Source: Terriglobia bacterium (lineage in GTDB: Bacteria; Acidobacteriota; Terriglobia; 20CM-2-55-15). From it: a stretch of DNA of 64,000 nucleotides. How positions within the stretch are numbered: the first letter of the stretch is position 1; each line of letters starts with the position of its first letter. The position numbers were made by a program, and so were the translations under genes. The notes under the pieces are model-generated. The model did not search any database. It was not told the origin of the DNA and saw only the letters and a program-made list of their open reading frames with translations. Positions 208-62,072 of this stretch are shown in pieces. The stretch is taken from the NCBI GenBank assembly GCA_965198225.1, contig CBDAOY010000008.1, forward strand, positions 768,012 to 832,011. Direction: 5' to 3'.

Positions 208-316
208 GACTCCCCTCCTCAGATGAGGAGGGGTGGCGCGAAGCGCCGGGGTGGTGCTGACCAAGAGATTCTGCGCCTGTGGCGCAGCTACGCCTCCTTA
301 TCCAGGGAGGGGAGTC
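208..316. repeat. REP/MITE-like element, family 1 (GACTCCCCTCC...GGAGGGGAGTC termini, internal TGGCGCGAAGCGCCA and CTGCGCC..GGCGCAG hairpins)
   Basis: Same modular sequence recurs at 4732-4777, 7783-8005, 36541-36590 and 44586-44753; intergenic; spurious ORF 139..324 lies inside it. Confidence 0.55.
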
Positions 317-393
317 GTTTTTAACTTCCACACTGCTGACCAACTGACTACCGACTACGGACAACGGCCTACGTCTTCTGTTATCCTGCCCGC

Positions 394-2472: not shown

Positions 2473-2921
2473 CCACACCCTGCGTGCAGATGGACCGCGA
2501 TCAACTCGAGTCAGGTCTCGCGGCCTACCTCGGTGAAATGGGTGTTCGGAGCGTCGTGGTCGACTCCGAACGGGTTCGCCTGGAGGCATTCGAGCACGTG
2601 GATTCGCCTCGAGCCGATTGTGGCGTGACCGACGTACTGTGGGGCATCGCATCGACGGGTACCCTTGCGATACCGATGACACCGGACAACCGACGAACAA
2701 CGTCCTTGGTTCCCCCGCTTCATGTCGCTCTGCTCGGAAAGGAGGATCTGATTCCCGATCTCACGATGGCCCTCGATCACCTGTATCAGGGAATGATGAA
2801 AAGGGAGGATCGTCCGTCGAGCGTAGTTTTCGTCACCGGTGCGAGTCGGACCGCCGATATCGAGTTGGACCTGGTCGTCGGGGTGCATGGGCCTCGGGAG
2901 TTACACGTGGTGTTGTTCTAG
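2430..2921 (+). CDS. lutC: LutC-like lactate utilization protein (DUF162/LUD domain)
   Basis: Overlaps the lutAB 3' end; 163 aa; stop TAG lies in the CTAG site that received the IS insertion. Confidence 0.65.
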   Translation: MELVRKFEAAARTLATPCVQMDRDQLESGLAAYLGEMGVRSVVVDSERVRLEAFEHVDSPRADCGVTDVLWGIASTGTLAIPMTPDNRRTTSLVPPLHVALLGKEDLIPDLTMALDHLYQGMMKREDRPSSVVFVTGASRTADIELDLVVGVHGPRELHVVLF

Positions 2922-2963
2922 GGCGTGTTAACACTAATGAGCATGAATGTTTTATAATCACGC

Positions 2964-3371
2964 ATGGAGATCACACAGGAGCAGTATTGTCGCATCGAGC
3001 CGGAACTGCCGCGTCAGCGGGGCAACGTCAGTCTTTCGAACCTGACGGTCTTGAACGCCATTTTGTATGTGGCTGAGCAGGGCTGCAAGTGGCGCGGTCT
3101 GCCCAAGCGCTTTGGCAACTGGCACACCATCTACACCCGGATGAACCGCTGGTCCAAGAACGGCGTGCTCGACGCCGTCTTCGAGAAACTCCAGCGCGAG
3201 CAACTGGTCCGCATCCGGGTCGAAGCCGTTTCGATGGACTCAACCATTGTGAAGGTGCATCCCGACGGCACGGGAGCGTTAAAAAAAACGGTCCGCAAGC
3301 GATCGGCAAATCCCGCGGCGGATGGACCACCAAGATTCATCTGGTTGCCGCGAATGCTCGAACGGCGATAA
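2964..3371 (+). CDS. IS5-family transposase, N-terminal frame (orfA)
   Basis: Sequence ...LTVLNAILYVAEQGCKWRGLPKRFGNWHTIYTRMNRWSKNGV... is typical of the IS427 group; an A8 slippery run at about 3283-3290 fits a programmed frameshift. Confidence 0.8.
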   Translation: MEITQEQYCRIEPELPRQRGNVSLSNLTVLNAILYVAEQGCKWRGLPKRFGNWHTIYTRMNRWSKNGVLDAVFEKLQREQLVRIRVEAVSMDSTIVKVHPDGTGALKKTVRKRSANPAADGPPRFIWLPRMLERR

Positions 3372-3721
3372 CGTTTGCGCTCTCGCCCGGCCAAGCGCAC
3401 GACGCCCCGCAGGGCCGCGATCTGCTCGCCGGCCTGGGGCCATTGCCCGCGCCGCTGCCGCTGCTGATGGACCGTGCCTACCAGGACGACCAGACCCGCC
3501 AATTGGCTCTGGATTTTGGGTGGATTCCCGTCGTGCCGCCCAAGCGCAACCGCCTGGAGCCGTGGGAATACGACCGCGTGCTCTACCGCCGCAGGAACGA
3601 AGTCGAGAGGCTCTTCCGCCGACTCAAGGGTTTCCGGCGTATCTTCTCCCGTTTCGATAAACTCGACGTCATGTTCCTCGCCTTCCTTCACTTCGCGCTC
3701 ATCGTCGAGGCACTACGTTAG
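3089..3721 (+). CDS. IS5-family transposase, C-terminal frame (orfB, DDE domain); expression depends on a frameshift from orfA
   Basis: Sequence ...GWTTKIHLVAANARTAITFALSPGQAHDAPQG...LDFGWIPVVPPKRNRLEPWEYDRVLYRRRNEVERLFRRLKGFRRIFSRFDKL... is DDE-transposase IS427-like. Confidence 0.8.
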   Translation: MARSAQALWQLAHHLHPDEPLVQERRARRRLRETPARATGPHPGRSRFDGLNHCEGASRRHGSVKKNGPQAIGKSRGGWTTKIHLVAANARTAITFALSPGQAHDAPQGRDLLAGLGPLPAPLPLLMDRAYQDDQTRQLALDFGWIPVVPPKRNRLEPWEYDRVLYRRRNEVERLFRRLKGFRRIFSRFDKLDVMFLAFLHFALIVEALR

Positions 3722-3734
3722 TGTTAACACGCCC

Positions 3735-3759
3735 TAGTGACCTGTTACAGGTCACTAGC
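3735..3759. repeat. 25-nt palindrome CTAGTGACCTG-TTA-CAGGTCACTAG (two joined MITE-type termini) containing the stop codons of convergent lutC and the moaD-like gene
   Basis: Perfect 11-bp arms; the same termini flank the 275-bp elements at 14062, 35240 and 51729. Confidence 0.6.
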
Positions 3760-3964: not shown

Positions 3965-4035
3965 CCGGGCCTTGGTGCGGAGATTCTGCCGGAGGGGCAG
4001 GTGAATCCAGACGCTGGAGACTCCCATCGGCTGAG

Positions 4036-4731: not shown

Positions 4732-4777
4732 CAGGGAACGACTTCCCTCCTCAGATGAGGAGGGAAGTCGTTCCCTG
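4732..4777. repeat. 46-nt perfect hairpin (family-1 core: CAGGGAACGACTTCCCTCC-TCAGATGA-GGAGGGAAGTCGTTCCCTG)
   Basis: Perfect inverted repeat; the core GACTTCCCTCCTCAGATGAGGAGGGAAGTC matches the termini of family-1 elements. Confidence 0.6.
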
Positions 4778-4887
4778 ACTCTCATGAGATATTCATCCGA
4801 CGCATTGAGAGCCCACGCTTCTCCATTGATCGAGATCGCGAGTGCCGCCGAGCAAGTTCCGGGTGTTTATCGTCTCTTCTACGGTGA

Positions 4888-6345: not shown

Positions 6346-6612
6346 GAGGCCCGGAGCGATGCGCATCCATAGGTCCGGGTTGTGGCGAAGTGGATCGATT
6401 GAAGGGTTGGCTAAAGAGGGGTCGGAGCCTCTTCCTCGTCCTGCCCGGGTGACAATATAGATACGAATTGGCAGATCCCCAGGGACGAAATGGCAATGGG
6501 CGTAATCCACTGATACAAAAGGGGATGCGAACTCACACGAAAGCTCGGGGAAACAGCCCTGGTGCTGATATCATGGTTCGATATCAACCAATCGGAGGTT
6601 CGCAGCGCAGCC

Positions 6613-7782: not shown

Positions 7783-8056
7783 GACTCCTAGGCGGCCACC
7801 AAAACTCCCCTCCTCAGACCACCCCGTCTGCGCCCCTGGCGCAGCCACCTCCTTATCAAGGAGGGGAGTCCGGGGTGAGGCGAAGGGCCGGGGTGGTGTT
7901 GATCAATAAAATCCCGCCTAAACTTCTGGCGCATCCAATAGCGTGATCCAACCACCCCGTCTGTGCCTTCGGCACATCCACCCCTCCTTATCCAGAGGGG
8001 AGTCGGCTCTCGTCAAGGACAGTGCCGCCACAACGGCCTACGGATAACGGCCTACG
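7783..8056. repeat. Composite repeat block: family-1 modules (two nested copies) followed by a family-3 GGCCTACG motif
   Basis: GGACTCC...CTCCCCTCCTCAG...CTGCGCCCCTGGCGCAG...GGAGGGGAGTCC, then ...CTGTGCCTTCGGCACA...CCAGAGGGGAGTC, then CAACGGCCTACGGATAACGGCCTACGCC. Confidence 0.5.
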
Positions 8057-14061: not shown

Positions 14062-14336
14062 CTAGTGACCTGTAACAGTGCTATCGGTACCAGCGTTCGG
14101 CGGAACGGCGTCGGATTCTAGGAGTGACGCCCGAGCCAATGCTGTTTCATTGCGAGGGCGTTACGACACCGAAGACGGCGCCGTTGGGCCGAACCCTTCG
14201 GGCCGATGGGGGTTGCGGGCGATCTCTTTGTCGGAAGCCGTCACCGATGAAAGAGCATCGCTTTCCGTCTCCCTCCTCGACCTCGCCCGCAAGACCCATC
14301 GGCGATGGTGCCGATAGCACTGTTACAGGCCACTAG
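14062..14336. mobile_element. MITE copy A (275 bp; TIR CTAGTGACCTGTAACAGTGCTATCGGTACCA ... TGGTGCCGATAGCACTGTTACAGGCCACTAG; TA duplication in a CTAG target)
   Basis: Near-identical reverse-complement copy at 51729-52003, diverged copy at 35240-35514; intergenic; internal ORFs not credible. Confidence 0.75.
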
Positions 14337-18841: not shown

Positions 18842-19981
18842 TCATCGGCTTGAATTCGAGTTGGAGTTGCCGTTCGAGTTGGAGTTGCCGTTCGAATTGA
18901 AGTTGCCGTTCGAGTTGGAGTTGCTGTTCGAGTTGGAGTTGCTGTTCGAGTTGGAGTTGGAGTTGCTGTTGCTGTTGGAGTTGCCGTTCGAATTGGAGTT
19001 GGAGTTCGTGTTCGAGTTGGAGTTCGTGTTGCCACCACCACCATTGGCGTTGCCGCCATTGCCGTTGCCCCCGGAGGGCGTCGTCATGAAGCCGAGGATC
19101 CCGCTCCGCCGAAGCGTGACGTCGGAGCTGAGGGTCACGTTGATCTGATTACCCGAGACGGGGTGGTTCTGACTCGCGAAGGATGTGACCGAGAGGTTGA
19201 TCCGCGTGATATTGCCGAGGGTGCCGGTCGGAACCGAACTCTGTCCGCTACCGCCGCCGCTACCACCGCTGCCACCGCTACCGCCGTTCCCGTTGGAATT
19301 TGTGTTGCCGTTGGAGTTCGAATTCGTGTTGCCGTTCGAGTTCGTGTTGCCGTTCGAGTTTGAATTCGAGTTGGAGTTGCTGTTCGAGTTGGAGTTGCTG
19401 TTCTGGTTGGAGTTGCTGTTTGAGTTGGAATTGCCGTTCTGCGCTGCCAACGTGATGAAGCCCCATCGGCGGAGGAGTCGAGCGACGGGAGACGCCGTGG
19501 GTGACGGGGGATTGCTGACGAAGCTTCCGGCATCACCGGTCGACACGAAATACGCAAAGAGCAACGCCGAGATATTGGATGCCAGTTGCTGCGACGTCGC
19601 CGTGCCTGTCAGGGCACCGGTCGCGTCCAACGGTTGTGTCGTCCGTGTGATGATGTTGTTGGCGTAGCTGAACGTCACCCGTTCGACCGTTCCGTCATCA
19701 TTCGTGTCGCCCGAAAAGGCGACCGTGGACTGATCGGCCTGGGCGATCGGCGTCACACCGGCGGGAGTGTTGTAGCCGGCGGACAGCAATTCCCGCCCGA
19801 TGCGTTCGGCTGCGAGCCGGGAATTCTGGCCGGCCTCGAGCTGGGACTGCTGGATCTGATAGGTTCTCTGATTCTGGGTGACGAGGAGAAAGACCGCTCC
19901 GAGGACGACCATCAACACAGCCACAACGATCAAGACTTCCAGCAGGGTGAAACCTTTGCTTCCTCTCTGTGCAGCTCTCAT
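18842..19981 (-). CDS. PilW/GspJ-like prepilin-type minor pilin with a long Asn/Ser/Gly-rich repetitive C-terminal tail
   Basis: Class III signal ...SKG|FTLLEVLIVVAVLMVVLGAV; C-terminal (NSNSNG)n, GGSGGSGGSGGGSG and (NSNSNS)n tracts encoded by hexanucleotide repeats. Confidence 0.6.
   Translation of the reverse strand: MRAAQRGSKGFTLLEVLIVVAVLMVVLGAVFLLVTQNQRTYQIQQSQLEAGQNSRLAAERIGRELLSAGYNTPAGVTPIAQADQSTVAFSGDTNDDGTVERVTFSYANNIITRTTQPLDATGALTGTATSQQLASNISALLFAYFVSTGDAGSFVSNPPSPTASPVARLLRRWGFITLAAQNGNSNSNSNSNQNSNSNSNSNSNSNSNSNGNTNSNGNTNSNSNGNTNSNGNGGSGGSGGSGGGSGQSSVPTGTLGNITRINLSVTSFASQNHPVSGNQINVTLSSDVTLRRSGILGFMTTPSGGNGNGGNANGGGGNTNSNSNTNSNSNSNGNSNSNSNSNSNSNSNSNSNSNSNSNGNFNSNGNSNSNGNSNSNSSR
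18850..19032. repeat. Tandem hexanucleotide/18-nt repeat tract 1 (GAGTTG/GAGTTC units) inside the pilW-like gene
   Basis: gttcgagttggagttgccgttcgagttggagttgc... repeated; encodes (NSNSNG)n on the minus strand. Confidence 0.75.
19288..19440. repeat. Tandem hexanucleotide repeat tract 2 inside the pilW-like gene, preceded by a GGTAGCGGC repeat (19237-19290)
   Basis: gttggagttcgaattcgtgttgccgttcgagtt... encodes NSNSNSN; the GGS-coding repeat lies immediately upstream on the coding strand. Confidence 0.75.
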
Positions 19982-20000
19982 AGACAAACTCTCCCTCGTG

Positions 20001-20405
20001 TTACGGGGCCCGATAGGTTCGGGCCGAGAGGTCGATCGGCGATGTTCCACCGATACCGGTGATAACGGTCGTGGTCACCGTGATCTCTTTCATCCCGACG
20101 CCCGGGGAATCGACTGTGACGGTCCAGGATCGGGTGAAGGCAGCTCCTGTCTCGGAAGTTTGCGGAATCCCGTCATCGTCCAGAAAGTCATTTCCGCTCT
20201 GCAAGGAATCATACGATGTGGCCTTCAATTCCTCCATCTTTTGTCGCAGGGCGGAGGTCATCCTCGAGATGTCCTGACTGTTCTTCGTTCCGATGACACT
20301 GGTGCTCATCGCGCCGGCCACCGCGAGGACGCCCGTCATCAGGATGAGCGAGGCAAGCATCAACTCGATGAGGCTGAAGCCTCTCTGGCTACTGGATGCT
20401 GACAT
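20001..20405 (-). CDS. PilV/GspI-like prepilin-type minor pilin
   Basis: N-terminus MSASSSQRG|FSLIELMLASLILMTGVLAV is a prepilin cleavage/methylation motif; 134 aa. Confidence 0.65.
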   Translation of the reverse strand: MSASSSQRGFSLIELMLASLILMTGVLAVAGAMSTSVIGTKNSQDISRMTSALRQKMEELKATSYDSLQSGNDFLDDDGIPQTSETGAAFTRSWTVTVDSPGVGMKEITVTTTVITGIGGTSPIDLSARTYRAP

Positions 20406-21021: not shown

Positions 21022-21383
21022 AAACTCGACCACTCATGGTGTGAGATGTCCGGTTCCCCTAGGGGCCGGCGCAAGAGCCCCCTTTTTTAAGGATAGAACA
21101 ACGCGATTATACGAACGGGACGGAACGACTGTAAAGCGGATATTGGAGTAGGATAGCGTCCTAGACACAACGACTTGTCGTTCTTGCGCGCTTTTGACTC
21201 AGAACTTTGTCGCTAGGAGAGTGCCCCGGCACGGACGGCTTCGCGGCATTGCCAGCGCGGATCGAACGGCTACTCTTGTCAGCGCCGAACCAGACGCTCG
21301 GCCTCTGCGGGGTCGGCGAGGCAGTCAGAGCGTTGACAGCCTGAGGGTGGTCGCATCCGATGGGGCCGTCTATCGCACCCGAC

Positions 21384-22570: not shown

Positions 22571-23806
22571 ATGAAGAACGCGAAACTGCACGCCTTCAAC
22601 AGACTCGCATTTGGGCCGCGGCAGGAAGATCTCGATCGCGATCTGGTCGATCTTCAGGAACACGTCGAGGTCCAGCTCCACCCGGCCGACATCGCCGACC
22701 AGGCGATAGAGCAGCGGCTGGCGACCCTGGAAACGCTCGGCATGTCGCCCCTGGAGTTCCTGAGGAAGTATCCCGGGCGCCGGGACTGGCGGATCGGTTT
22801 GCAGCAGCTGACGGCCGCAAAGCTGCTGCGCGCCGTCCAAAGCGAATGCCAGCTCCGGGAAGTGATGGTCGACTTCTGGTTCAATCACTTCAACGTATTC
22901 GCGGGTAAAGGTGCATGCCGGCTCCTGGTTTCTTCCTACGAGAGAGACGCCATCCGCCCGTACGTCTTCGGAAAGTTTCGCGAACTGGTGTCGGCGACGG
23001 CGCGCCACCCTGCGATGCTGTTCTACCTGGACAACTGGCTGAGCGCGTCGCCCGACGCCGAGCCGCGTGGGCGTCGTCGTGGGCTCAACGAGAACTATGC
23101 CCGGGAGTTGATGGAACTGCACACGCTCGGCGTCGATGGTGGCTACACGCAGGAAGACGTCGTCGCCGTGGCGCGCGCCTTCACCGGCTGGACGATAGAG
23201 GCCCCCCGGCGCCCGAGCTTCATGTTTGCCCCACCGCTGCATGACGACGGTGCCAAGACCGTCCTTGGCAGGGCGATAGACGGCGGCGGGATGCGGGATG
23301 GCGAACAGGTGATCGATGTGCTCTGTGGTCACCCGTCTGCGGCGCGGTTTGTCGCGACCAAATTGATTCGGCGTTTCGTCTCCGACGATCCCCCTGCGGC
23401 GCTGGTGGAGAGTGTGGCGCGGACGTTTACCCGGACGGATGGCGACATCCGGGAGATGCTCCGCGTGGTGATCCATTCGCGGGAGTTCGCCGAATCGGAA
23501 CAGCAGAAGGTCAAGACGCCGTTCGAGTTCGTCATCAGCGCCGTGCGTGCGCTCGGAGCCGAGGTGAGCAATCCCGGTATTCTCGCGCGGTTCCTGCAGC
23601 GGATGGGTCAGCCGCTCTACATGGCCATACCGCCGACCGGCTACTCCGACGAGGCGGCCGATTGGATGAGCTCCGGCACGCTGATGTTGCGTCTCAACTT
23701 CGTGGCGCAGATCGCTGCGGGGCGATCGCGGGGAATTCAGCTCGACGGGCGCGAGCCGGAGCAGATCGTCAGGAATCTGGGGACGCCGGAGTTTCAGCGG
23801 CGCTAG
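22571..23806 (+). CDS. DUF1800 family protein
   Basis: ...WFNHFNVFAGKGACRLLVSSYERDAIRPYVFGKFRELVSATARHPAMLFYLDNWLS... is the diagnostic DUF1800 block; pairs with a DUF1501 gene. Confidence 0.7.
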   Translation: MKNAKLHAFNRLAFGPRQEDLDRDLVDLQEHVEVQLHPADIADQAIEQRLATLETLGMSPLEFLRKYPGRRDWRIGLQQLTAAKLLRAVQSECQLREVMVDFWFNHFNVFAGKGACRLLVSSYERDAIRPYVFGKFRELVSATARHPAMLFYLDNWLSASPDAEPRGRRRGLNENYARELMELHTLGVDGGYTQEDVVAVARAFTGWTIEAPRRPSFMFAPPLHDDGAKTVLGRAIDGGGMRDGEQVIDVLCGHPSAARFVATKLIRRFVSDDPPAALVESVARTFTRTDGDIREMLRVVIHSREFAESEQQKVKTPFEFVISAVRALGAEVSNPGILARFLQRMGQPLYMAIPPTGYSDEAADWMSSGTLMLRLNFVAQIAAGRSRGIQLDGREPEQIVRNLGTPEFQRR

Positions 23807-24077
23807 CAGCCCGTGGCAGAACTCTGCAGGGCCGCGTTACGGCCAAACGGGGACCGGATTCTAGGAGGCGAGGACGAAACAATGCTCATTCATTGGGAGG
23901 AGTCGGCGACAACGAAGACGGCCCCATTTCGCCGTAACCCGAAGGGCGCAGGGGGGGGCGGGCCGCAGGCTTTGTCGCTCGTCGGTCACGATGAATGATC
24001 ATCGCTCCGCTCCTCTCTTCGCGCCTGCAACCCGAAGACCCCTGCGCGCGACCCTCCAGAGTTCTGCCACGGGCTGC
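23806..24077. mobile_element. MITE copy D: same roughly 210-bp core as copies A/B/C but different 30-bp termini (GCAGCCCGTGGCAGAACTCTGCAGGGCCGC ... inverted), with TA duplication
   Basis: Core blocks cggattctaggag, aatgct..ttcattg.gagg, cgaca.cgaagacggc, ctttgtcg and gtcac.gatgaa.ga.catcgct are shared with 14062-14336; flanked by TA/TA; sits between the DUF1800 and DUF1501 genes. Confidence 0.55.
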
Positions 24078-24122
24078 TATAGGGATGTTATTTCTGATTC
24101 AGGACGCCAGTTGGGTGAGGGA

Positions 24123-28712: not shown

Positions 28713-28855
28713 ATGAGAGGCGATCAGCTCGATCGGATGGGACTATCGGCGCGCTTCCGAAGTAAGCTGATAGCTGAAGGCTGAGAGCACGCTTGATCCT
28801 CACGATTGGAGAACAAGCTCCCGGACCGAGGATCAAGCGTTTAAGGAGAAGCAAG

Positions 28856-30034
28856 ATGAGGAGTATCGGTCGCCGGTTCGGCCTGTTGTTTTTCGCCGCG
28901 TGGTTCCTGGTATTGCCGGTTGCTGCGCAAGAGGCGATTCCTCTCGATCTTCGTCTGGGGGTCGAGCATGTCGATGCGATGGCGCGCGACGAATTCGAGC
29001 AGGACGACGTCGGCAGCGTGGCGATCGGAATCGTTGATGGTGCGGATCTGATCTGGACTAAGAGCTACGGTTACGCCGACATGGAGTTGGAAAGCCTGGC
29101 GGACCGGAACACGGTCTACCGGGTCGGCTCGATAACCAAGCAGTTCACCGCGCTGATGTTGCTCCAGCTCGCCGATGCAGGCATCGTCCGGCTTTCCGAC
29201 CCGGTCGAGATCTACTTTCCCGAGATCAACCGCGTGCAGGACCGCATCCCCGATGCCCCCCCGATCACGCTCGTCCAGCTGGCCACCATGACGTCCGGGC
29301 TGGCCCGCGAGCCCGACGATCTGGCCACCTACCTGAGAGGACCGGTTTCGGAGTGGGAGCAAGTCCTGATCGCCGCTCTCGGCGAGACCCACTATTCACA
29401 CGAGCCCGACACGCGCTACATGTATTCGAACATCGGGTATGGATCGCTGGGCGCCACGCTGGGAAGGGCGGCTGGAAACGTGTTTACCGACTACATCCAC
29501 GAACGGATACTTGAGCCCCTCGGGATGGCGCATTCCGCCTTCGAACCGAACGACGCAATTAAGCCTCACCTGTCGAAGGGCTACAGCGTGAGCCGCGAAG
29601 GCACAGTGGACTCGGAGACTCCTGCCAGGGAACACGCTGGGCGCGGCTACAAGGTGCCGAACGGTGCGCTCTACACGAGTGTGGTCGATCTCGCTCGTTT
29701 CGTATCATTCGAACTCGGTCGTGGGCCCGCAGAAGTGCTGCCGCCGGAGGTCTTGGCCGAGAACTTCGAACGGGTCAATTCAGCCGACGGCGACCTCGAG
29801 TCCGGCTACGGCGTCGGCTTCCAGTTGAGCCGTCGTGACGACCTGATATTCCACGGCCATGGTGGGGGGGTGTCCGGTTATCGTGCCGCCGCGCACGTCC
29901 ATCTGCGAACTGGGATCGGAGTCATCGTCCTGCGGAACGTCAGCGGTGGCGCCTTCGACGTGGGAGGCCTCTGTCTGGACGCTCTCGAAGTCCTCGTTCG
30001 CGCACGACTGGCTTCCTCTGAAGACCCGCACTAG
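28856..30034 (+). CDS. Serine hydrolase, beta-lactamase/PBP4-fold family, secreted
   Basis: Signal MRSIGRRFGLLFFAAWFLVLPVAAQ; S-x-x-K motif SITKQF; YMYSNIGY (YxN); stop TAG lies in the CTAG end of the downstream element. Confidence 0.75.
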   Translation: MRSIGRRFGLLFFAAWFLVLPVAAQEAIPLDLRLGVEHVDAMARDEFEQDDVGSVAIGIVDGADLIWTKSYGYADMELESLADRNTVYRVGSITKQFTALMLLQLADAGIVRLSDPVEIYFPEINRVQDRIPDAPPITLVQLATMTSGLAREPDDLATYLRGPVSEWEQVLIAALGETHYSHEPDTRYMYSNIGYGSLGATLGRAAGNVFTDYIHERILEPLGMAHSAFEPNDAIKPHLSKGYSVSREGTVDSETPAREHAGRGYKVPNGALYTSVVDLARFVSFELGRGPAEVLPPEVLAENFERVNSADGDLESGYGVGFQLSRRDDLIFHGHGGGVSGYRAAAHVHLRTGIGVIVLRNVSGGAFDVGGLCLDALEVLVRARLASSEDPH

Positions 30035-30194
30035 CAGGCTGCTGAAAAAACTCCGTTTTTCGGCAGTCTGTGTCGCGGCACCGGACGTGCCGCCATTTTC
30101 GATGGCTGTATGCCATTGAAAATGTGAGGCACCTGAGAATCAACCTTCTCAGGTGACGTTGCTGAAAAAGCCACTGAAGGCTTTTTCAGCATCC
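30033..30194. repeat. About 162-bp inverted-repeat element CTAGCAGGCTGCTGAAAAA ... TTTTTCAGCATCCTGCTAG enclosing several hairpins; a further 12-bp IR hairpin follows at 30198-30270
   Basis: 19-bp imperfect terminal IRs starting with CTAG; internal hairpins CCTGAGAA/TTCTCAGG, CGGCAC/GTGCCG and GCTGAAAAAGCC/GGCTTTTTCAGC; ORFs 29940..30143 and 30031..30252 inside it judged spurious. Confidence 0.45.
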
Positions 30195-30499
30195 TGCTAG
30201 TGTCCTGAGTCGGGAACAATATCGCTATCGCAGACGAGTGTTGCTCGAGCAAATTTCGGACTCAGGACACTGTTACATGCCACCAGACGAGCCCCCGCTT
30301 TCGGAACCTTCCGAGGCGGCGACTCCTGACTACCCGTCCAGGGGCCCCTCCCTACCGAGGAGGGTCGCACCCCCCTGATGAATTCCTGTATTTCCTGCAT
30401 GGAGACGCGCAATTTTTACGTCTTATTAAGTGAGACGGCCATATGGAGACGTACGCAAGAAATTCGCGCGAGGGATTAAATCACTGATTCTATTTTTCT

Positions 30500-31912: not shown

Positions 31913-31953
31913 GTTGAGCTGATAGCTGAACGCTGACGGCTGATCGCTTACCC

Positions 31954-31990
31954 AAAAAGGCGACGACTCCTCGAGTCGTCGCCTTTTTGG
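31954..31990. terminator. Bidirectional rho-independent terminator (AAAAA-GGCGACGACTC-ctc-GAGTCGTCGCC-TTTTT) between the convergent EAL-HDOD and amidase genes; followed by a solo MITE terminus GTTACAGGCCAC-TA-TA at about 31992-32008
   Basis: 11-bp GC-rich stem, A-run upstream and T-run downstream. Confidence 0.65.
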
Positions 31991-32000
31991 TTACAGGCCA

Positions 32001-33425
32001 CTATAGCGGCGGACGACGGCGGTGCCAGTCGGTCTGGGACTCGTAGGCATGACTGACCTTGAACAGCGTGAACTCATCGAACGGCCGACCGTAGAACTGG
32101 ATCGTAATCGGTAATACCGGAGGGCCCGAAGCAAAGCCGCAGGGGATCGTGATCGCCGGCAGTCCCGTCATGTTCCCGATGAACGTGTTGCCTCGGCGAA
32201 ACCGGGGAGTCGACGCTCCAGGGCGGACGTCGCTCCGCGCCTCCTCGGCCGATCGGAGCCTGCCCGCCACGCTCGTGTTGCCCGGCACGGCCATGACGTC
32301 ACACGTTTCAAAGACCCGCTTCATGTCCTCTTGCAGTATGGTTCTCACGCGCAGAGCCTTGATGTAGTCGGTTGCGGTGTAGAACTTCCCGGTTTCGAGG
32401 CGCTCTCGTACCAGGGGGTCGAACAGGTGGGGCGACTCTCTTAGACGTCTCTCGTGAAAACATGCTGCTTCGGCCATAGCGACGGTCCAGCCGGCCGATC
32501 CGGCGAGGTTCGCGTTCGGGACTTCAACGTCCACTATCCGCGCTCCCATCTCGGTGAGCGAACGAATTGCTTCCCGAACCGCGCCGTCGACTTCATCGGA
32601 CGCTCCCTCGAAGAAGTAGTTCGTCGGAACGCCGATCCTCAGCCCTCGAATGTCGCCGTCCAGGGCACGATCATAGTCGGGGACAGCCTCATCGATCGTG
32701 CTGGGGTCCGCAGCGTCGAAGCCGGCCATGACCTGCAGCATGTGTGCGGCGTCGGCGACTGTCTTGGTCATCGGTCCGGCATGATCCAGCGTCCAGCTCA
32801 GCGTTGTCACGCCGTGGCGGCTGACGCGACCGTAGGTCTGTTTCAACCCTACAATTCCGTTCGCAGCCGCGGGTCCCCGGATGGACCCTCCCGTGTCGGT
32901 GCCGATCGACAACGGAACCATGTAGGCAGCCAGCGCAGCGCCCGAACCGCTGGAGGATCCGGCCGGCGAGTAGTCCAGATCCCAGGGATTGTGCACGGGT
33001 CCGAAGCCGGATAGGACGCCGCTGCCCATCGCGAACTCCAGCAGGTTCAGCTTCCCGATCAGGATGGCGCCGGCACGGTTCAGGCGATCGGTGATCGTGG
33101 ACTCGTAGTCGGGAACCCAGTTGGCCGTGACTTTTGATCCGTTCGTCGTGAGGATGTTTCTGGTCGCCAGGATGTCTTTGGGTGCGTAAGGGATGCCGTG
33201 CAGCGGGCCGCGGTAGCTTCCACCCTGTATCTCGCGCTCTGCCTCGCGTGCTCTCCGTAGAGCGTGCTCGCGCGTGAGGGTGATGAAGGCGTTGACCTGC
33301 GGATTGAGTCGCTCCGCGCGGTCGAGGAACGCTGTGACGACTTCAACCGGGGACACCTCCCGTGAACGTACGAGGTCTGCGAGTTCCACACCACTCTTGA
33401 AAACAAGATCCTCGGCCTGCATCAT
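32001..33425 (-). CDS. Amidase-signature family amidase (GatA/AtzE-like)
   Basis: AS motif GSSSGSGAALAA, the catalytic Ser-cisSer-Lys region, and the APKDIL block; 474 aa. Confidence 0.8.
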   Translation of the reverse strand: MMQAEDLVFKSGVELADLVRSREVSPVEVVTAFLDRAERLNPQVNAFITLTREHALRRAREAEREIQGGSYRGPLHGIPYAPKDILATRNILTTNGSKVTANWVPDYESTITDRLNRAGAILIGKLNLLEFAMGSGVLSGFGPVHNPWDLDYSPAGSSSGSGAALAAYMVPLSIGTDTGGSIRGPAAANGIVGLKQTYGRVSRHGVTTLSWTLDHAGPMTKTVADAAHMLQVMAGFDAADPSTIDEAVPDYDRALDGDIRGLRIGVPTNYFFEGASDEVDGAVREAIRSLTEMGARIVDVEVPNANLAGSAGWTVAMAEAACFHERRLRESPHLFDPLVRERLETGKFYTATDYIKALRVRTILQEDMKRVFETCDVMAVPGNTSVAGRLRSAEEARSDVRPGASTPRFRRGNTFIGNMTGLPAITIPCGFASGPPVLPITIQFYGRPFDEFTLFKVSHAYESQTDWHRRRPPL

Positions 33426-33793: not shown

Positions 33794-35239
33794 TCAGGCC
33801 GGCTGGTTTCCGGCGGCCCAATACGCTGACTTAAATTTTTCGAATCGCTCTCGGAGCGCGGAATCCGAGACCGTCCCCGGCGTCGTCGCTTCAAGCAGAA
33901 TGCGTTCCATCGCGCCCTCGGTCGAAGTCCCCAGGGCGCGGAAAGCGCAGCGCGCTGCCCCGCGAAGGGTTGCCAGACCCGCAGCGTGGGGAATGCGTAT
34001 CCGTTGCGGGATCACGCTCGCGAGCAGGGAAGCGAGAGCGGGCTCCATGAACCCGTTGCCGGACAGAACCGCGGTGTCGGAGCAAAGTCCCGACACGCGG
34101 TCAACCTGCTCGACATAAACTGCGAGATGAAACGCGAGGCCTTCAACGACGGCCCGTCGTAGATCCCGTATGTCATGCTCCCCCGTAAGTTCGTGCCATT
34201 CGGCGCGGAGTCGGCTGTCCCAGAAAGGCGACCGTTCGCCGCGCAGGAATGGAATGAACAGCGGGGGGGCCGGTGCCGCGCCCTCGCTGAACTCCAATCC
34301 TGCGAGAACCTGTCGACCCCAGTCGAGAACGTTCCCGCCGTTGTTGCTGGCACATCCCAGAAGGAAGTGTGTCTGGTCGAACCGATAGCAGAAGGTTCCG
34401 GCGTCGGGATCGACGACAGGTTCCCAGACGAGTTTTCGAACGCTGGCCGTGGTACCGCAAGTCACAGCGATGTGTGTGGCGTTCCCGCACCCGGATCCGA
34501 TGTTGGCCAGGAAACCGTCGCCGCCGCCTGCGACCACGGGCAGATCCGGGGGCAATCCGAGGCGGTCGGCTGCCTCTGGCTTCAGGTGTCCTGCGATCTC
34601 GGCCGGGTCGACAAGGCGAGGCAAAGCGGCGGGCGTCAAATGAAGTAGTTCGAGTACCTCCGAGTCCCATTCTCCAGACTCCAGGTTGAGCAGTCCTGAC
34701 GCCGATGCGCTGGAAGTGTCCTCGACCTTCTGCCCTGTCAGCTCCTCGAGAACGCTGCTCTTCAATGAACCGAAACAGTGGCCGCCTGCGAACATCGCCG
34801 GAGCCCTCGAGCGCAGCCACGCGAGCTTGAACACCGGAAACATGGGATGGAATCGAACCCCGGTTCTGGACAGGAACTGTTTCCCCAGGGCCTCTTCGAC
34901 TTGACCGACAGCCTCACCACCCTGGCGGTCCAGCCACGTGAATACCTCCGATTTTGTGCGCCCATGATCGTCGCGGACGAGCAGCGTGTGCATCATCGAT
35001 GACAGGACTATGGCTTCGGGGGGCGGGAAGCCTTCGATTGACGATCGGATCGAACGAGTGAGGGCTTTGCCGGCGATTTCAGGAGAGAGTGTGGCCGAGC
35101 CTTTTCCGTCTTCGGAAAACCTCCAGCCGATTTCGCTGACCCGGAGCGGGGTGAGGCTTCGATCGATCAGCGCCGCCGACGCTCCGCCGGAGGCCAGATC
35201 CACTGCGAGGACGGTGGGGTTGGACTCCGGTCTAGACAC
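33794..35239 (-). CDS. FGGY-family carbohydrate kinase (gluconokinase/xylulokinase-like)
   Basis: N-terminal ...VLAVDLASGGASAAL... and C-terminal ...VVAGGGDGFLANIGSGCG... are FGGY blocks; GTG start directly abuts the MITE B terminus. Confidence 0.6.
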   Translation of the reverse strand: MSRPESNPTVLAVDLASGGASAALIDRSLTPLRVSEIGWRFSEDGKGSATLSPEIAGKALTRSIRSSIEGFPPPEAIVLSSMMHTLLVRDDHGRTKSEVFTWLDRQGGEAVGQVEEALGKQFLSRTGVRFHPMFPVFKLAWLRSRAPAMFAGGHCFGSLKSSVLEELTGQKVEDTSSASASGLLNLESGEWDSEVLELLHLTPAALPRLVDPAEIAGHLKPEAADRLGLPPDLPVVAGGGDGFLANIGSGCGNATHIAVTCGTTASVRKLVWEPVVDPDAGTFCYRFDQTHFLLGCASNNGGNVLDWGRQVLAGLEFSEGAAPAPPLFIPFLRGERSPFWDSRLRAEWHELTGEHDIRDLRRAVVEGLAFHLAVYVEQVDRVSGLCSDTAVLSGNGFMEPALASLLASVIPQRIRIPHAAGLATLRGAARCAFRALGTSTEGAMERILLEATTPGTVSDSALRERFEKFKSAYWAAGNQPA

Positions 35240-35514
35240 CTAGTGGCCTGTAACGGAGATATCGGCACCATCGCCGATGGGTCTTGCCAGTCGAGGTCGA
35301 GGAGAGAGGAGGAATTGATGCGGTTTCATCATGACGACGAACGACAAAGAGATCGACGGCAACCCCCATCGGCCCGGAGGGTTGCGGCGGAACGGCACCG
35401 TCTTCGTTGTCGCTCCTCCTCGCAATGTAGGCGCATTACCTCGTCGTCGACTCCTAGAATCCGGTGCCGTTCCACCGCAACGCTGGTACCGATATCTCCG
35501 TTACAGGCCACTAG
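35240..35514. mobile_element. MITE copy B (diverged; CTAGTGGCCTGTAACGGAGATATCGGCACCA ... TGGTACCGATATCTCCGTTACAGGCCACTAG) inserted exactly between the gnd stop and the FGGY-kinase start
   Basis: Same termini and core as 14062-14336 and 51729-52003; the gnd TAG stop lies in the right CTAG, the kinase GTG is 1 nt from the left CTAG. Confidence 0.7.
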
Positions 35515-36419
35515 TCTCCGGGGGCCACATCATGGCCCCCGAACTGCTGACGGAGCGCAGCGACGAGCTTGTTAGAGAAAGCGTCCGGGTCCCGGGACTG
35601 CAGGCGCGCAATCAGCGAAAGCGTGATGATGGGGGCGGCCACGTCGAGTTCGACCGCTTCGGCTACGGTCCATCGTCCTTCTCCGGAGTCCTCCACATGG
35701 GCTCCGACGGAGGAAAGTCCCGAATCCTGCCGGAGAGCCCGTTCTGCAAGTTCGAGAAGCCAGGAGCGTATGACGCTACCCTGATTCCAGATTTCGGCGA
35801 CCTGGGACAGGTCCAGGTCAAATTCCGCCTTTTCGCGCAGGATCGCGAAACCCTCGGCGTACGCCTGCATCATCCCGTACTCGATTCCGTTGTGGATCAT
35901 CTTCACGAAGTGTCCTGCTCCAGCGGGTCCGACTCGACCCCACCCTCCGTCCGGGGCGGGTGCAAGCGTCTCGAACACCGGGCGTAGACGATCTACCACC
36001 TCCTCAGTCCCCCCGATCATCAGACAGAAGCCGTCGCTCCGACCCCAGATCCCTCCACTGGTTCCGACGTCCAGGAAGGAGACAGCGTGCGCCCCCAACC
36101 GGCCGTGACGACGGAGCGTGTCTTTATAGTTAGAGTTGCCGCCATCGACGACGATTGCGTCGTTTCCCAGGGCCGGAAGGAGCTCTTCAATTACGGCGTC
36201 GACGGCGCTGCCGGCCGGCAGCATCAGCCACACCACCCTCGGCTCGTGTGTCTTTTGGAGGACATCCGACAACGACTCGGCGGCTTCAAATCCGTCCGGC
36301 TCGAGCCCGCGTGCCATTTCCGGATCCCGATCGTAACCGATGACACGATGGCCGCCCGCCTGGAGTCGGCGCGCAATGTTGGCGCCCATCCGACCCAGGC
36401 CGACGATGCCAATTTCCAT
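35511..36419 (-). CDS. gnd: 6-phosphogluconate dehydrogenase (decarboxylating), short-chain Gnd/YqeC type
   Basis: MEIGIVGLGRMGANIARRL Rossmann motif; ...GGNSNYKDT..., ...GTSGGIWG..., ...HFVKMIHNGIEYGMMQAYAEGF... match 6PGDH. Confidence 0.8.
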   Translation of the reverse strand: MEIGIVGLGRMGANIARRLQAGGHRVIGYDRDPEMARGLEPDGFEAAESLSDVLQKTHEPRVVWLMLPAGSAVDAVIEELLPALGNDAIVVDGGNSNYKDTLRRHGRLGAHAVSFLDVGTSGGIWGRSDGFCLMIGGTEEVVDRLRPVFETLAPAPDGGWGRVGPAGAGHFVKMIHNGIEYGMMQAYAEGFAILREKAEFDLDLSQVAEIWNQGSVIRSWLLELAERALRQDSGLSSVGAHVEDSGEGRWTVAEAVELDVAAPIITLSLIARLQSRDPDAFSNKLVAALRQQFGGHDVAPGD

Positions 36420-36540
36420 AGAGTCCTCCGCACCCGAGGTGACCAGCCATGATAGAACAGAATGCGGTCGATGCGGAGATTGAGCCGGCCCCGCCGGGCC
36501 GGCTTAGGGACAAGTGACGAGTGACAAGTGAGAGTGCCCT

Positions 36541-36590
36541 GACTCCCCTCTTCGGATGAGGAGGGGTGCGGGGGTGGAGCGCACTCTAAC
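36541..36590. repeat. Family-1 hairpin fragment (GACTCCCCTCTTCGGATGAGGAGGGGTG) within GAGTGC...GCACTC, upstream of the SMR gene
   Basis: Matches the termini of family-1 elements; GTGACAAGTGA direct repeats just upstream. Confidence 0.45.
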
Positions 36591-36609
36591 AAAACGAAAG
36601 GATCCCAAT

Positions 36610-44529: not shown

Positions 44530-44585
44530 GAGCCAACAAAGGTAAAACGTAGGTGGTGTGCGGGGCAAGCCTCTGTTTCAGAAAC

Positions 44586-44753
44586 GGACTCCCCTCCTCG
44601 GATCAGGAGGGGTGGCGCGAAGCGCCAGGGTGGTGTCGACCGGGAAGAAAACCACCCCGTTGGCGCCCTTGGCGCATCCACCCGGGCAATCGAACCACCC
44701 CGTCTGCGCCTTCGGCGCATCCACGCCTCCTTATCTATCCAAGGAGGGGAGTC
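44586..44753. repeat. Family-1 REP/MITE-like element (full modular copy)
   Basis: GGACTCCCCTCCTCGGATCAGGAGGGGTGGCGCGAAGCGCCAGGGTGGTG ... ACCACCCCGTCTGCGCCTTCGGCGCATCCAC...CTCCTTATCTATCCAAGGAGGGGAGTC. Confidence 0.6.
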
Positions 44754-51728: not shown

Positions 51729-52003
51729 CTAGTGGCCTGTAACAGTGCTATCGGTACCATCGCCGATGGGTCTTGCGGGCGAGGTCGAGGAGGGAGACGG
51801 AAAGCGATGCTCTTTCATCGGTGACGGCTTCCGACAAAGAGATCGCCCGCAACCCCCATCGGCCCGAAGGGTTCGGCGGAACGGCGCCGTCTTCGGTGTC
51901 GTAACGCCCTCGCAATGAAACAGCATTGGCTCGGGCGTCACTCCTAGAATCCGACGCCGTTCCGCCGAACGCTGGTACCGATAGCACTGTTACAGGTCAC
52001 TAG
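51729..52003. mobile_element. MITE copy C (reverse-complement, near-identical to copy A)
   Basis: CTAGTGGCCTGTAACAGTGCTATCGGTACCA...TGGTACCGATAGCACTGTTACAGGTCACTAG; spurious ORFs 51729..51941 and 51748..51987 mirror those in copy A. Confidence 0.75.
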
Positions 52004-61561: not shown

Positions 61562-62072
61562 GGTGTAGGTGCGCTCTATGAGCGCACGTGTTTCGATTTG
61601 AAGAGTGTGCGGTCATAGACCGCACCTACACGTATCGCAAATTGCGATATTTGAAAGAATCCACATTGCAGGTTGCTCATTGGAGATTGTTTTCATTTCA
61701 GATTTCCGACCAATAAGAAATCGAGCAATTTGCAATCTCCAAATTTCCACTGCGGAATCGTCCAGTGACCAATCTGCAATGGCTGTCGGACGAGGTCCCC
61801 AGCCACCTCACTCGATCGAGTAGAGTGTGCGGTCATAGACCGCACCGACACCTATCGCAATTGCGAGATTTGAAAAGAATCCACATTGCAGGTTGCTCAT
61901 TGGAGATTGTTTCATTTCAGATTTCCGACCAATAAGAAATCGAGCAATTTGCAATCTCCAGATTTCCAATGCGGAATCGTCCAATGACCAATCTGCAATA
62001 GCTGTCGGACGAGGTCCCCAGCCATCTCCCTCGATCGAGTAGAGTGTGCGGTCATAGACCGCACCTACACGT
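61562..62072. repeat. Tandem repeat: two roughly 220-bp low-GC units, each bounded by the hairpin GAGTGTGCGGTC-ATA-GACCGCAC(C)TACAC(G) (three hairpin copies at 61603, 61823, 62042) and preceded by a variant hairpin at 61562
   Basis: Unit period 220/219 bp with about 95% identity between units; GC content well below the window average. Confidence 0.75.

What the first reader, a model, noticed from the sequence alone, without database searches (positions are those of the whole stretch)
35240..35514. Mobile elements in this window repeatedly sit on TAG stop codons and start codons of tightly packed operons
MITE B separates the gnd stop (inside its right CTAG) from the GTG start of the FGGY kinase (1 nt from its left CTAG). 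The bla-like gene stop lies in the CTAG of the 30033 element. The DUF1800 stop lies at the TA flank of element D. The lutC and moaD-like stops lie in the 3735 palindrome. Inference: in a 65% GC genome, TA dinucleotides and CTAG are depleted everywhere except stop codons. TA-targeting elements are therefore funnelled to gene ends. Once inserted they could decouple translational coupling or add terminators and promoters inside operons, for example splitting gntK from gnd.
Basis: inference. Interest (0 to 1): 0.5.

Follow-up and report, generated by a model that had tools for sequence, protein, structure and literature searches.

The report
IS630-type MITE on TAG stop codons
A 271-bp non-coding jumping element of the IS630 family sits exactly in the TAG stop codon of a sugar-metabolism gene; the family inserts at CTAG and rebuilds it on both sides, so about half of its copies in many bacteria lie on stop codons without changing the protein.

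Summary
Window 35240-35514 is a 269-bp MITE with 34-nt inverted ends and a TA duplication inside 5'-CTAG-3'. It separates the TAG stop of a 6-phosphogluconate dehydrogenase gene from the GTG start of an FGGY kinase gene. Before insertion the two codons abutted (TAG|GTG). Full-length 1.1-kb relatives with the same ends encode IS630-family transposases. Those transposase genes borrow their own stop codon from the target TAG, as in IS870.

In the window, 5 of 7 independent insertion sites lie on stop codons. Across 67 independent insertions from many phyla, the target is CTAG in 52. In 31-33 the junction TAG is the stop codon of a real gene. For unoccupied CTAGs the figure is 15-23% (OR 3.2-4.7, p<=6e-5).

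CTAG is the limiting target, not TA. CTAG is not confined to stop codons. The elements begin with G and end with C, so they regenerate CTAG and keep the stop. Selection against insertions in coding and 5' regions does the rest.

I found no promoter or terminator signal. Intact pheS|pheT, mreC|mreD and hemA|hemC pairs carry such insertions in other genomes.

This is a new member of a known kind and of moderate interest.

The parts
35240..35514 (+). MITE B. Body is 35243-35511 (269 bp), with TA duplications at 35241-42 and 35512-13. The 34-nt inverted ends are 35240-35273 and 35481-35514. Both junctions read CTAG.
   Evidence: (I11). It is about 98% identical to a copy in another Terriglobia genome (L033). 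As RNA it folds at -167.7 kcal/mol, z = -11.
35511..36419 (-). 6-phosphogluconate dehydrogenase, short type (gnd). Its stop TAG is 35513..35511: the last C of the MITE plus the TA duplication.
   Evidence: Pfam NAD_binding_2 + 6PGD. NF007161 scores 440 bits against a cutoff of 271, and TIGR00872 scores 384 against 297.
33794..35239 (-). FGGY-family sugar kinase (gluconokinase-like). Its GTG start at 35239..35237 directly abuts the left CTAG. It is the only start codon between the in-frame TAG and the conserved LAVD motif.
   Evidence: Pfam FGGY_N + FGGY_C. The best NCBIfam match is gntK_FGGY, covering residues 11-437, but it is below the cutoff. Sequence.
14062..14336 (-). Second copy of the same MITE family. 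It is 99% identical to the 51729 copy and lies in a CTAG between convergent genes, not on a stop codon (the nearest stops are 91 and 60 bp away).
   Evidence: (I1, I12).
51729..52003 (+). Third copy. It lies in a CTAG between the divergent ECF sigma-factor and NMT1-like genes, not on a stop codon.
23804..24079 (+). Element D, a related MITE subfamily with the same core and diverged ends (GCAGCCCGTGGCAG). The left TA plus its first G form the DUF1800 stop (23804-06). The right flank reads TA|TAG.
   Evidence: (I13).
2919..3736 (+). IS5-family insertion sequence. Body is 2921-3734, with a 20-nt perfect inverted repeat that includes CTAG and a two-frame transposase (2964-3371 and 3089-3721). Its left junction carries the stop of the LUD-domain (lutC-like) gene at 2919-21.
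   Evidence: I1; NF033580, 140 and 107 bits.
3735..3757 (.). 19-nt 'nano' palindrome GTGACCTGTTACAGGTCAC (3737-3755) flanked by TA. It consists of just the two tips of the MITE family's ends. Its right junction, cta 3755-57, is the stop of the ThiS/MoaD-like gene 3755-4030 (-).
   Evidence: (I3).
30032..30199 (+). 164-bp MITE of another type, with ends GCAGGCTGCTGAAAAA. It lies in the CTAG that holds the stop of the beta-lactamase-family gene (28793-30034).
   Evidence: I1 of the second region.
30200..30283 (+). Degenerate 84-bp member of the main family (GTGTCCTGAGTC...CTGTTACATGCCAC). It directly follows the previous element and shares its TA.
   Evidence: I2.
31990..32003 (+). Solo right tip GTTACAGGCCAC plus TA, next to a hairpin at 31949-31993. 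The amidase gene (32001-33425, -) stops at cta 32001-03, using the C of the tip.

Best explanation
Window 35240-35514 is a non-autonomous derivative (MITE) of an IS630-family insertion sequence.

**How it inserts.** A transposase supplied in trans recognises the GTGGCCTGTAAC ends. It cuts and pastes the element into the TA of 5'-CTAG-3' and duplicates the TA. In the autonomous relatives, the transposase reading frame runs through the right end (...VTGH) and takes its stop codon from the target TA plus the following G, as in IS870.

**Why it ends up on stop codons.**
- The element starts with G and ends with C, so both junctions read CTAG again.
- A host TAG stop that used the target CTAG, on either strand, therefore survives unchanged and the host protein is untouched.
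- CTAG is rare in coding sequence, and insertions there or in 5' control regions are removed by selection.
- The surviving copies pile up at gene ends, and about half sit exactly on a stop codon.
- Each regenerated CTAG can be hit again, which gives stacked elements.

**What it did here.** It split an abutting gnd TAG | GTG kinase junction by 271 nt of strongly self-pairing RNA and removed the kinase's native Shine-Dalgarno sequence.

**Shown versus inferred.**
- Shown: the element's identity, its target, the stop-codon association and the preserved reading frames.
- Inferred: that selection rather than insertion preference shapes the distribution.
- Inferred: that the insertion weakens translational coupling without blocking transcription.
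For: **Anatomy.**

**Autonomous relatives.**
- Elements of 1095-1112 bp share the same 12-16-nt tips and about 85% identity with the window MITE over 26 nt.
- They encode a 355-aa IS630-family transposase: NF033545, 246 bits against a cutoff of 100.
- In 5 of the 6 I listed as full length, a transposase-length ORF (304-361 codons) ends ...VTGH and then takes its TAG from the target. L052 does not.

**Target.**
- The target is CTAG in 52 of 67 insertions, with no wider motif.
- All 67 insertions have unrelated flanks.

**Stop-codon association.**
- 31/67 are on the stop codon of a called gene. Unoccupied CTAGs split 38 stop, 118 intergenic and 91 coding. OR 4.7, p=5e-7 against all sites; OR 2.7, p=0.0016 against non-coding sites.
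- In a test that needs no gene caller, 33/67 against 57/247, p=6e-5.
- 19 of 20 sampled junction ORFs have Pfam domains, several running to the C-terminus: T2SSE, PheS, SelB.

**Bias towards 3' ends.**

**Stacked elements.** Seen at 2919-3757 and 30032-30283, and in L040 and L083.

**The gnd/kinase junction.**
- The uninterrupted relative L113 has TAGTG with AAGGAG upstream.
- The MITE RNA folds at -167.7 kcal/mol, z = -11.

**Literature.** IS870 and its CTAG target are described in PMC13630536 and PMC6471742.
Against: - No empty-site allele of this species was found. The only other assembly (L195) is 99.99% identical and carries the MITE.
- No autonomous copy lies in the window.
- The gene calls in the 8-kb loci come from a crude codon-usage caller trained on the window.
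- In the window alone the enrichment is not significant (p=0.06-0.16).
- Element D does not reconstruct to a clean CTAG.
- After removing divergent and edge regions, a roughly 2-fold excess at stop codons remains (p=0.04). Tight convergent gene ends are strongly over-used (11/33 against 1/35). Neutrality plus availability does not obviously explain either result.
Confidence: 0.8

Rival explanations
1. Availability only. The elements hit CTAG at random, and stop codons are hit simply in proportion to their share of CTAGs. There is no selection filter and no preference.
For: - The target is CTAG, with no extended motif.
- In the window alone, occupied and unoccupied CTAGs do not differ significantly by class (p=0.06-0.16).
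Against: - None of 67 insertions is in called coding sequence, although 91 of 247 unoccupied CTAGs are.
- Stop codons are over-used 2.7- to 4.7-fold.
- Divergent regions are under-used (4/60 against 67/393).
Confidence: 0.07
2. Active targeting of gene ends. The transposase or a host factor prefers CTAGs at the 3' ends of genes, for example through local DNA structure, converging transcription or stalled replication, beyond what selection produces.
For: - A roughly 2-fold excess at stop codons remains after divergent and edge regions are excluded (31/56 against 38/101, p=0.04).
- Tight convergent gene ends are hit 11/33 against 1/35, p=0.001.
Against: - There is no sequence preference outside CTAG.
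- Half of the copies are not on stop codons, including two of the three full copies in the window.
- Tight convergent ends are also the places with the least regulatory DNA, so selection predicts the same bias.
Confidence: 0.1
3. Domesticated regulatory module. The copies at gene junctions are kept because the hairpin RNA does something useful, such as stabilising transcripts, serving as a processing site, insulating, attenuating or carrying a promoter.
For: - The RNA fold is extremely stable.
- Copies lie inside operons of housekeeping genes.
- Correia and REP elements are known to act this way (own knowledge; Delihas review PMC2229807).
Against: - There is no Rfam match.
- There is no sigma-70-like promoter or convincing terminator.
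- There is no orientation bias relative to the upstream gene (5:5, 1:3 and 4:1 in the three size classes).
- Across phyla only the ends are conserved, while the cores differ in length and sequence.
- The 35240 copy is about 98% identical to a copy elsewhere, so it is recent.
Confidence: 0.05

Closest known systems
IS630 family, in particular IS870 of Agrobacterium vitis (Fournier et al. 1993, as cited in PMC13630536 and PMC6471742)
   Same: - It duplicates TA inside 5'-CTAG-3'.
- The transposase ORF has no stop codon of its own and uses the target TAG. This is seen here in 5 of the 6 elements I listed as full length (L024, L036, L045, L048, L062, L075; not L052).
- The transposase passes the NCBIfam IS630 model.
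   Different: - The window holds only non-coding 269-bp derivatives, in an acidobacterial (Terriglobia-like) genome.
- The end sequence GTGGCCTGTAAC is shared across Acidobacteriota, Proteobacteria and Nitrospirota.
- The point of interest is the use of host-gene TAG stops, not the stop of the element's own gene.
RUP of Streptococcus pneumoniae (an IS630-Spn1-derived MITE) and other bacterial MITEs such as Correia/NEMIS elements
   Same: - They are small non-coding elements whose inverted ends match an IS.
- They insert at TA, have many copies, form hairpin RNA when co-transcribed, and are mostly intergenic (PMC2229807).
   Different: - Their ends and cores have different sequences.
- RUP and Correia elements are described as targeting TA, not CTAG.
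- Correia elements carry IHF sites, promoters and RNase III sites. None of these is shown here.
Pneumococcal BOX repeats that carry host stop codons (Croucher et al. 2011, PMC3049150)
   Same: In 36 genes, including folE, mtlD, dnaJ and glgP, the extreme 3' end and the stop codon lie inside the repeat, with no evident truncation. The outcome is the same as here.
   Different: - BOX is modular (boxA, boxB, boxC), sits in a low-GC genome and has no CTAG logic.
- There the repeat supplies the stop codon. Here the pre-existing stop is regenerated.
IS5-family elements and their MITEs that use CTAG (e.g. MITEPsy1, PMC3189936)
   Same: The target is CTAG or YTAA. The window's IS5-family element (2920-3734) and the 164-bp MITE at 30034 also sit in CTAG on stop codons.
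   Different: They use a different transposase family, and MITEPsy1 is reported to make a 4-bp duplication. Here a 2-bp and a 4-bp duplication cannot be told apart.
REP/BIME elements
   Same: They are palindromic and lie at the 3' ends of genes and inside operons.
   Different: REPs are 20-40 nt, have no target duplication and are moved by RAYT tyrosine transposases. This element has 34-nt inverted ends, a TA duplication and an IS630 partner.

Membership tests
IS630-family-derived MITE | Terminal inverted repeats that match those of an autonomous IS630-family element | tested here: met
   The 12-nt tip GTGGCCTGTAAC is identical, and about 22 of 26 nt are shared with L062/L052. The L062 ORF is an IS630 transposase: NF033545, 246 bits against a cutoff of 100, with Pfam DDE_3 and HTH domains.
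IS630-family-derived MITE | TA target-site duplication | tested here: met
   TA lies on both sides of all three window copies and of 61 paired elements elsewhere.
IS630-family-derived MITE | Preference for 5'-CTAG-3' | tested here: met
   C at -1 in 60/67, G at +1 in 57/67, full CTAG in 52/67.
IS630-family-derived MITE | Small size, with no transposase gene | tested here: met
   The body is 269 bp. The longest internal frames are 86 codons or fewer and are remnants of the outward-reading end frame.
IS630-family-derived MITE | Multiple dispersed copies with unrelated flanks | tested here: met
   The window holds three full copies, one related subfamily copy and remnants. The 67 insertions share no flank similarity.
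IS630-family-derived MITE | A cognate autonomous element in the same genome | not testable with these tools
   None lies in the window.
IS630-family-derived MITE | Evidence of mobility (an empty site or a polymorphism) | tested here: inconclusive
   The only other assembly of this organism (L195, 99.99% identical) has the insertion. A distant relative (L113, gnd 63% identical) has an uninterrupted TAGTG junction. Near-identical copies in another species-level genome imply recent activity.
IS870-like IS630 elements (stop codon supplied by the target) | The transposase ORF reads through the right end and terminates at the target TAG | tested here: met
   The L062 ORF 6401-7468 ends ...PVTGH, and its TAG is the duplicated TA plus the flanking G. 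The same holds for L024, L036, L045, L048 and L075. This applies to the autonomous relatives, not to the window MITE itself.
Intrinsic (Rho-independent) terminator | A G+C-rich hairpin followed by a run of U | tested here: not met
   Only three weak 5-8-bp stems lie inside the element. There is no U run after the 34-bp end stem, which is followed by ...GGCCACUAGGUGUCUAGACC.
REP/BIME | A 20-40-nt imperfect palindrome without a target duplication, linked to a RAYT transposase | tested here: not met
   The element is 269 bp with 34-nt inverted ends, has a TA duplication and has an IS630 partner.
Known structured RNA family (Rfam) | A match at the gathering score | tested here: not met
   There were 0 matches in the whole window.

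The most novel reading that the evidence does not exclude
When one of these elements lands in a tight stop|start junction, its long end-to-end hairpin may hold the upstream stop codon (5' base of the stem) next to the downstream start codon (3' base of the stem). Terminating ribosomes could then re-initiate across the base of the hairpin. This would be a bacterial counterpart of ribosome shunting and would keep translational coupling despite 160-560 nt of insert.

It would explain two observations. Tight junctions, including pheS|pheT, mreC|mreD and hemA|hemC, are hit as often as other stop-codon CTAGs (8/33 against 7/35). The downstream genes also stay intact.

Nothing here tests the idea. 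Independent initiation from the weak AGG in the element's tip, 7 nt before the start codon, is a simpler alternative.
Probability: 0.06. Interest if true: 0.8.

Novelty: new member of a known kind. Interest (0 to 1): 0.4.

Why it matters
**For annotation.**
- In high-GC soil bacteria, a TAG stop codon preceded by C is a predictable landing site for IS630-type and IS5-type elements.
- In this window about half of such stop codons are occupied.
- Gene ends, short 'intergenic' gaps inside operons and apparent small ORFs there should be read with this in mind.

**For biology.**
- It gives a simple, testable rule for how a transposon family spreads through dense genomes at little cost: a CTAG target, G...C ends, and therefore preserved stop codons.
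- It provides natural experiments in which tightly coupled gene pairs, some essential, have been pulled apart by a stable hairpin.
- It suggests that CTAG-targeting elements could add to selection against C-TAG stop codons and against CTAG in general.

The ingredients are already known: the CTAG target, IS870's borrowed stop codon, and repeats that overlap stop codons. This is therefore an extension of known behaviour, not a new mechanism.

Tried and rejected
- **Gene calling.** A first gene caller based on GC3 missed gnd and other genes. I replaced it with a codon-usage log-odds caller and cross-checked the result with a test that needs no caller.
- **Known RNA families.** An Rfam scan of the window found nothing.
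- **Promoters and terminators.** The scan of 34900-35900 found no promoter-like site and only weak terminator-like stems.
- **Empty site, by exact protein.** Exact-protein look-ups for gnd and the kinase found nothing. The look-up through the neighbouring 852-aa protein found only a 99.99% identical contig that carries the MITE.
- **Empty site, by metagenome scan.** A scan with gnd found no relative closer than 63% identity. Only one locus (L113) had the kinase downstream.
- **Wider target motif.** None was found beyond CTAG.
- **Orientation bias** relative to the upstream gene: none was found, with small numbers.
- **Mini-ORF in the MITE.** A 30-codon ORF ends at the TAG before the kinase GTG. 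The corresponding outward frame is open in other copies, but many have no ATG in it. I did not pursue this as a mechanism.
- **Possible extra element at 21059-21213.** The region holds three CTAGs but no inverted repeat, so it is ordinary intergenic DNA.
- **Excision footprint for the 19-nt palindromes.** I considered this unlikely, because Tc1/IS630-type footprints are a few nucleotides long (own knowledge). It remains unresolved.
- **Literature.** Full-text searches found no paper that links CTAG targeting to host stop codons. The IS870 paper itself is not held in the library.

Full report
**What is at the coordinates.**
- Window 35240-35514 is bounded by CTAG on both sides. It has 34-nt terminal inverted repeats (35240-35273 and 35481-35514, 94% complementary).
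- Read as TA + G...C + TA, the body is 269 bp (35243-35511), flanked by a duplicated TA.
- On the minus strand, the ORF 35511-36419 is a short-type 6-phosphogluconate dehydrogenase. Pfam finds NAD_binding_2 + 6PGD. NF007161 scores 440 bits against a cutoff of 271. Its TAG stop is 35513..35511, which is the last C of the element plus the TA.
- The ORF 33794-35239 is an FGGY-family kinase. Its best NCBIfam match is gluconokinase, but below the cutoff. Its GTG at 35239..35237 directly abuts the left CTAG.
- That GTG is the only start codon between the in-frame TAG and the conserved N-terminal LAVD motif, so the start assignment is firm (profile coordinates).
- Removing the element and one TA gives ...GGAGAC TAG GTG TCT...: the stop and start codons abut, with GGAG upstream.
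- The nearest uninterrupted relative I could find is L113, a metagenome contig whose gnd is 63% identical. There the same gene pair has an overlapping TAGTG preceded by AAGGAG.

**What kind of element it is.**
- The window holds two more full copies, at 14062-14336 and 51729-52003, which are 99% identical to each other.
- It also holds a related subfamily copy at 23804-24079, with the same core and diverged ends.
They come from Acidobacteriota, Gamma- and Betaproteobacteria, Nitrospirota and others.
- In those loci I paired ends into 61 elements with TA on both sides, plus six 18-19-nt 'nano' palindromes.
- Most are MITEs of about 162, 172 or 269 bp. I listed six elements of 1000-1112 bp as full length (L024, L036, L045, L048, L062, L075).
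- The L062 element (6354-7465) encodes a 355-aa protein that passes the NCBIfam IS630 transposase model (246 bits against a cutoff of 100) and has Pfam DDE_3 and HTH domains.
- Its ends share the 12-nt tip and about 22 of 26 nt with the window MITE.
- In these elements the long ORF (304-361 codons) reads through the right end as ...VTGH and stops at a TAG made of the duplicated TA plus the flanking G. L052, which has the same length and tips, has no such ORF. This behaviour is described for IS870 (Fournier et al. 1993, as cited in PMC13630536 and PMC6471742).
- The window element is therefore a MITE of an IS870-like branch of the IS630 family.
- The 35240 copy is about 98% identical to a copy in a different Terriglobia genome (L033), so the subfamily was active recently.

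**The other examples in the window.**
- By my own tally, there are seven independent insertion sites, and five are on stop codons.
- *Site 1 (2918-3758).* A LUD-domain (lutC-like) gene stops at 2919-21. That stop is followed by an 815-bp IS5-family element (2920-3734) with a 20-nt perfect inverted repeat that includes CTAG and a two-frame transposase. Next comes a 19-nt palindrome made of only the two MITE tips (3737-3755). Then comes the stop (cta 3755-57) of a ThiS/MoaD-like gene on the other strand. Reconstructed, the two convergent genes shared a single CTAG for their stop codons, and two elements entered it one after the other.
- *Site 2 (30031-30283).* The stop of the beta-lactamase-family gene (30032-34) lies in the CTAG at the left end of a 164-bp MITE of another type. 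That MITE is followed directly by a degenerate 84-bp member of the main family, and the two share a TA.
- *Site 3.* The DUF1800 stop (23804-06) is the TA plus the first G of element D.
- *Site 4.* The amidase stop (cta 32001-03) uses the C of a solo MITE tip.
- *Site 5.* The gnd/kinase site described above.
- The copies at 14062 (between convergent genes) and 51729 (between divergent genes) are in plain intergenic CTAGs.
- Counting original sites, 5 of 9 stop-codon CTAGs are occupied, against 2 of 11 intergenic and 0 of 5 coding CTAGs. This is suggestive but not significant on its own (p=0.06-0.16).

**Is it more than chance?**
- Across the 67 insertions, all with unrelated flanks, the reconstructed target is CTAG in 52. 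C precedes the TA in 60 and G follows it in 57. No other position is informative.
- With a codon-usage gene caller, the junction TAG is the stop codon of a called gene in 31 of 67, and on both sides in 3.
- The 247 unoccupied CTAGs in the same 538 kb split into 38 stop-codon, 118 intergenic and 91 coding sites. This gives OR 4.7 (p=5e-7) against all sites and OR 2.7 (p=0.0016) against non-coding sites.
- A test that needs no gene caller asks whether the junction stop closes an open frame of at least 80 codons with a positive coding score. It gives 33/67 against 57/247 (p=6e-5).
- Of 20 junction ORFs checked with Pfam, 19 have domains, often running to the C-terminus: a T2SSE ATPase, LpxC, MreC, HemA, PheS, SelB, a His-biosynthesis family protein (HisA/HisF type) and a XerC/D-type integrase. 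The stop codons therefore belong to real, intact genes.

**Why stop codons.**
- The window has 1144 TA dinucleotides, 863 of them in coding sequence. The specificity is for CTAG.
- CTAG is depleted, 34 against 86 expected. Most unoccupied CTAGs are nonetheless not stop codons.
- Two further points explain the pattern.
  - The elements begin with G and end with C, so both junctions read CTAG again. A TAG stop that used the target, on either strand, is kept exactly. This can be read directly from the sequence at every site above.
  - No insertion lies in called coding sequence. Divergent (5'/5') regions are under-used and convergent regions are over-used: 24 convergent, 32 tandem and 4 divergent, against a census of 77, 249 and 67. 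That is the usual signature of selection against disruptive insertions.
- Regenerated CTAGs are re-used, which explains the stacked elements in the window and in L040 and L083.
- A residue remains. With divergent and edge regions removed, stop codons are still about 2-fold over-used (p=0.04). Tight convergent gene ends are hit 11/33 against 1/35. I cannot tell whether this reflects stronger neutrality of such sites or a real insertion preference.

**Consequences for the operon.**
- Shown by sequence: the kinase lost its native GGAG and its abutment to the gnd stop codon.
- In the gnd-to-kinase direction, the inserted RNA folds into one long hairpin (-167.7 kcal/mol, z = -11). The base of that hairpin includes both CTAGs and the GUG.
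- Not shown: any promoter or terminator. The scan found no sigma-70-like promoter and only weak 5-8-bp stems. Rfam found nothing. Orientation relative to the upstream gene shows no bias.
- Other insertions of the family lie between pheS and pheT (L092, TAG|ATG abutting), mreC and mreD (L009), and hemA and hemC (L041), with both partners intact.
- Tight stop|start junctions are hit as often as availability predicts (8/33 against 7/35).
- This argues that the elements do not block transcription and that downstream translation remains sufficient. By what route is unknown.
- I rate 'weakened coupling, transcription read-through' as the likeliest outcome. This is inference only.

**Comparison with what is known.**
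- The CTAG target of IS630-type elements and IS870's borrowed stop codon are established.
- IS5-derived MITEs that duplicate CTAG are known (PMC3189936).
- IS630-derived MITEs such as RUP, and hairpin-forming co-transcribed MITEs such as Correia elements, are known (PMC2229807).
- In the pneumococcus, 36 genes have their stop codon inside a BOX repeat without evident truncation (PMC3049150).
- In the searchable library I found no paper that states that host TAG stops are the main landing site of CTAG-targeting elements, or that quantifies it. This is an absence in that library only.
- I file the element as a new member of a known kind. The stop-codon rule is a useful, moderately novel generalisation.

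**Limits.**
- The gene calls outside the window are crude.
- The loci were chosen because they contain an element, and the scan was truncated.
- No empty site from the same species was found.
- Element D does not reconstruct cleanly: removing it gives CGC TAT AGG, in frame with DUF1501. A G-to-T change at 24080 or an extra TA must be assumed.

Noticed in passing
window 3737-3755; L001 6506-6524; L011 6587-6605; L080 969-987; L035 6254-6271; L096 781-798: The same 18-19-nt palindrome, TA-GTGGCCTGT|TACAGGCCAC-TA, made of only the two MITE tips, recurs with the same junction in unrelated genomes. Five of the six copies are on stop codons. It could be a minimal transposable unit or a stereotyped hairpin-deletion product. 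It seems too long to be a Tc1/IS630-type excision footprint.
   Followed up: partly
L092 6746-7304; L009 5070-5241; L041 2785-2994: Insertions of the same family split classic operons exactly at the upstream TAG: pheS|pheT (reconstructed TAG|ATG abutting), mreC|mreD and hemA|hemC. Both partner genes are intact in each case.
   Followed up: yes
window 2919-3757 and 30032-30283; L040 2320/2323; L083 3819/3822: Different elements are stacked head to tail and share a single TA. The CTAG regenerated by one insertion is used again by the next, so occupied sites grow.
   Followed up: partly
window 23804-24079 and flank 24080-24082: Element D has a core 70-80% identical to the 269-bp family but ends that differ at 7 of 20 positions. 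Its right flank reads TA|TAG, so the simple reconstruction gives no stop codon and an in-frame DUF1800-DUF1501 fusion.
   Followed up: partly
L062 6401-7468 (also L024, L036, L045, L048, L075): The autonomous IS630-family relatives have no stop codon of their own. The transposase ends ...VTGH and stops at the target TA plus the flanking G, as reported for IS870. In L062 the element also sits where two convergent host genes shared one CTAG for their stop codons.
   Followed up: yes
window 208-320, 4740-4794, 7798-8000, 36536-36595, 44582-44743: A separate family of G+C-rich, REP-like palindromic intergenic repeats (GACTCCCCTCCTCAGATGAGGAGGGG... with companion modules) is present. These have no TA or CTAG ends.
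   Followed up: no
window 61602-62070: A 219-bp unit is repeated 2.1 times in tandem (94% match) in a 53% G+C stretch between a response-regulator gene and the next gene.
   Followed up: no
window 18855-19441: Arrays of 6-nt and 18-nt repeats (GAGTTG and related units) lie inside the ORF 18842-20050 (-). This looks like a repetitive low-complexity protein segment.
   Followed up: no
window 3755-4030 (-): The ThiS/MoaD-like ORF ends ...VPAIG with a single glycine rather than the usual Gly-Gly C-terminus. The reconstructed pre-insertion sequence gives the same ending.
   Followed up: no
window 35240-35330 (-): A 30-codon ORF inside the MITE (MMKPHQ...ISVTGH) ends at the TAG that abuts the kinase GTG. 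The same outward-reading frame is open in other copies, and many of those have no ATG in it.
   Followed up: partly
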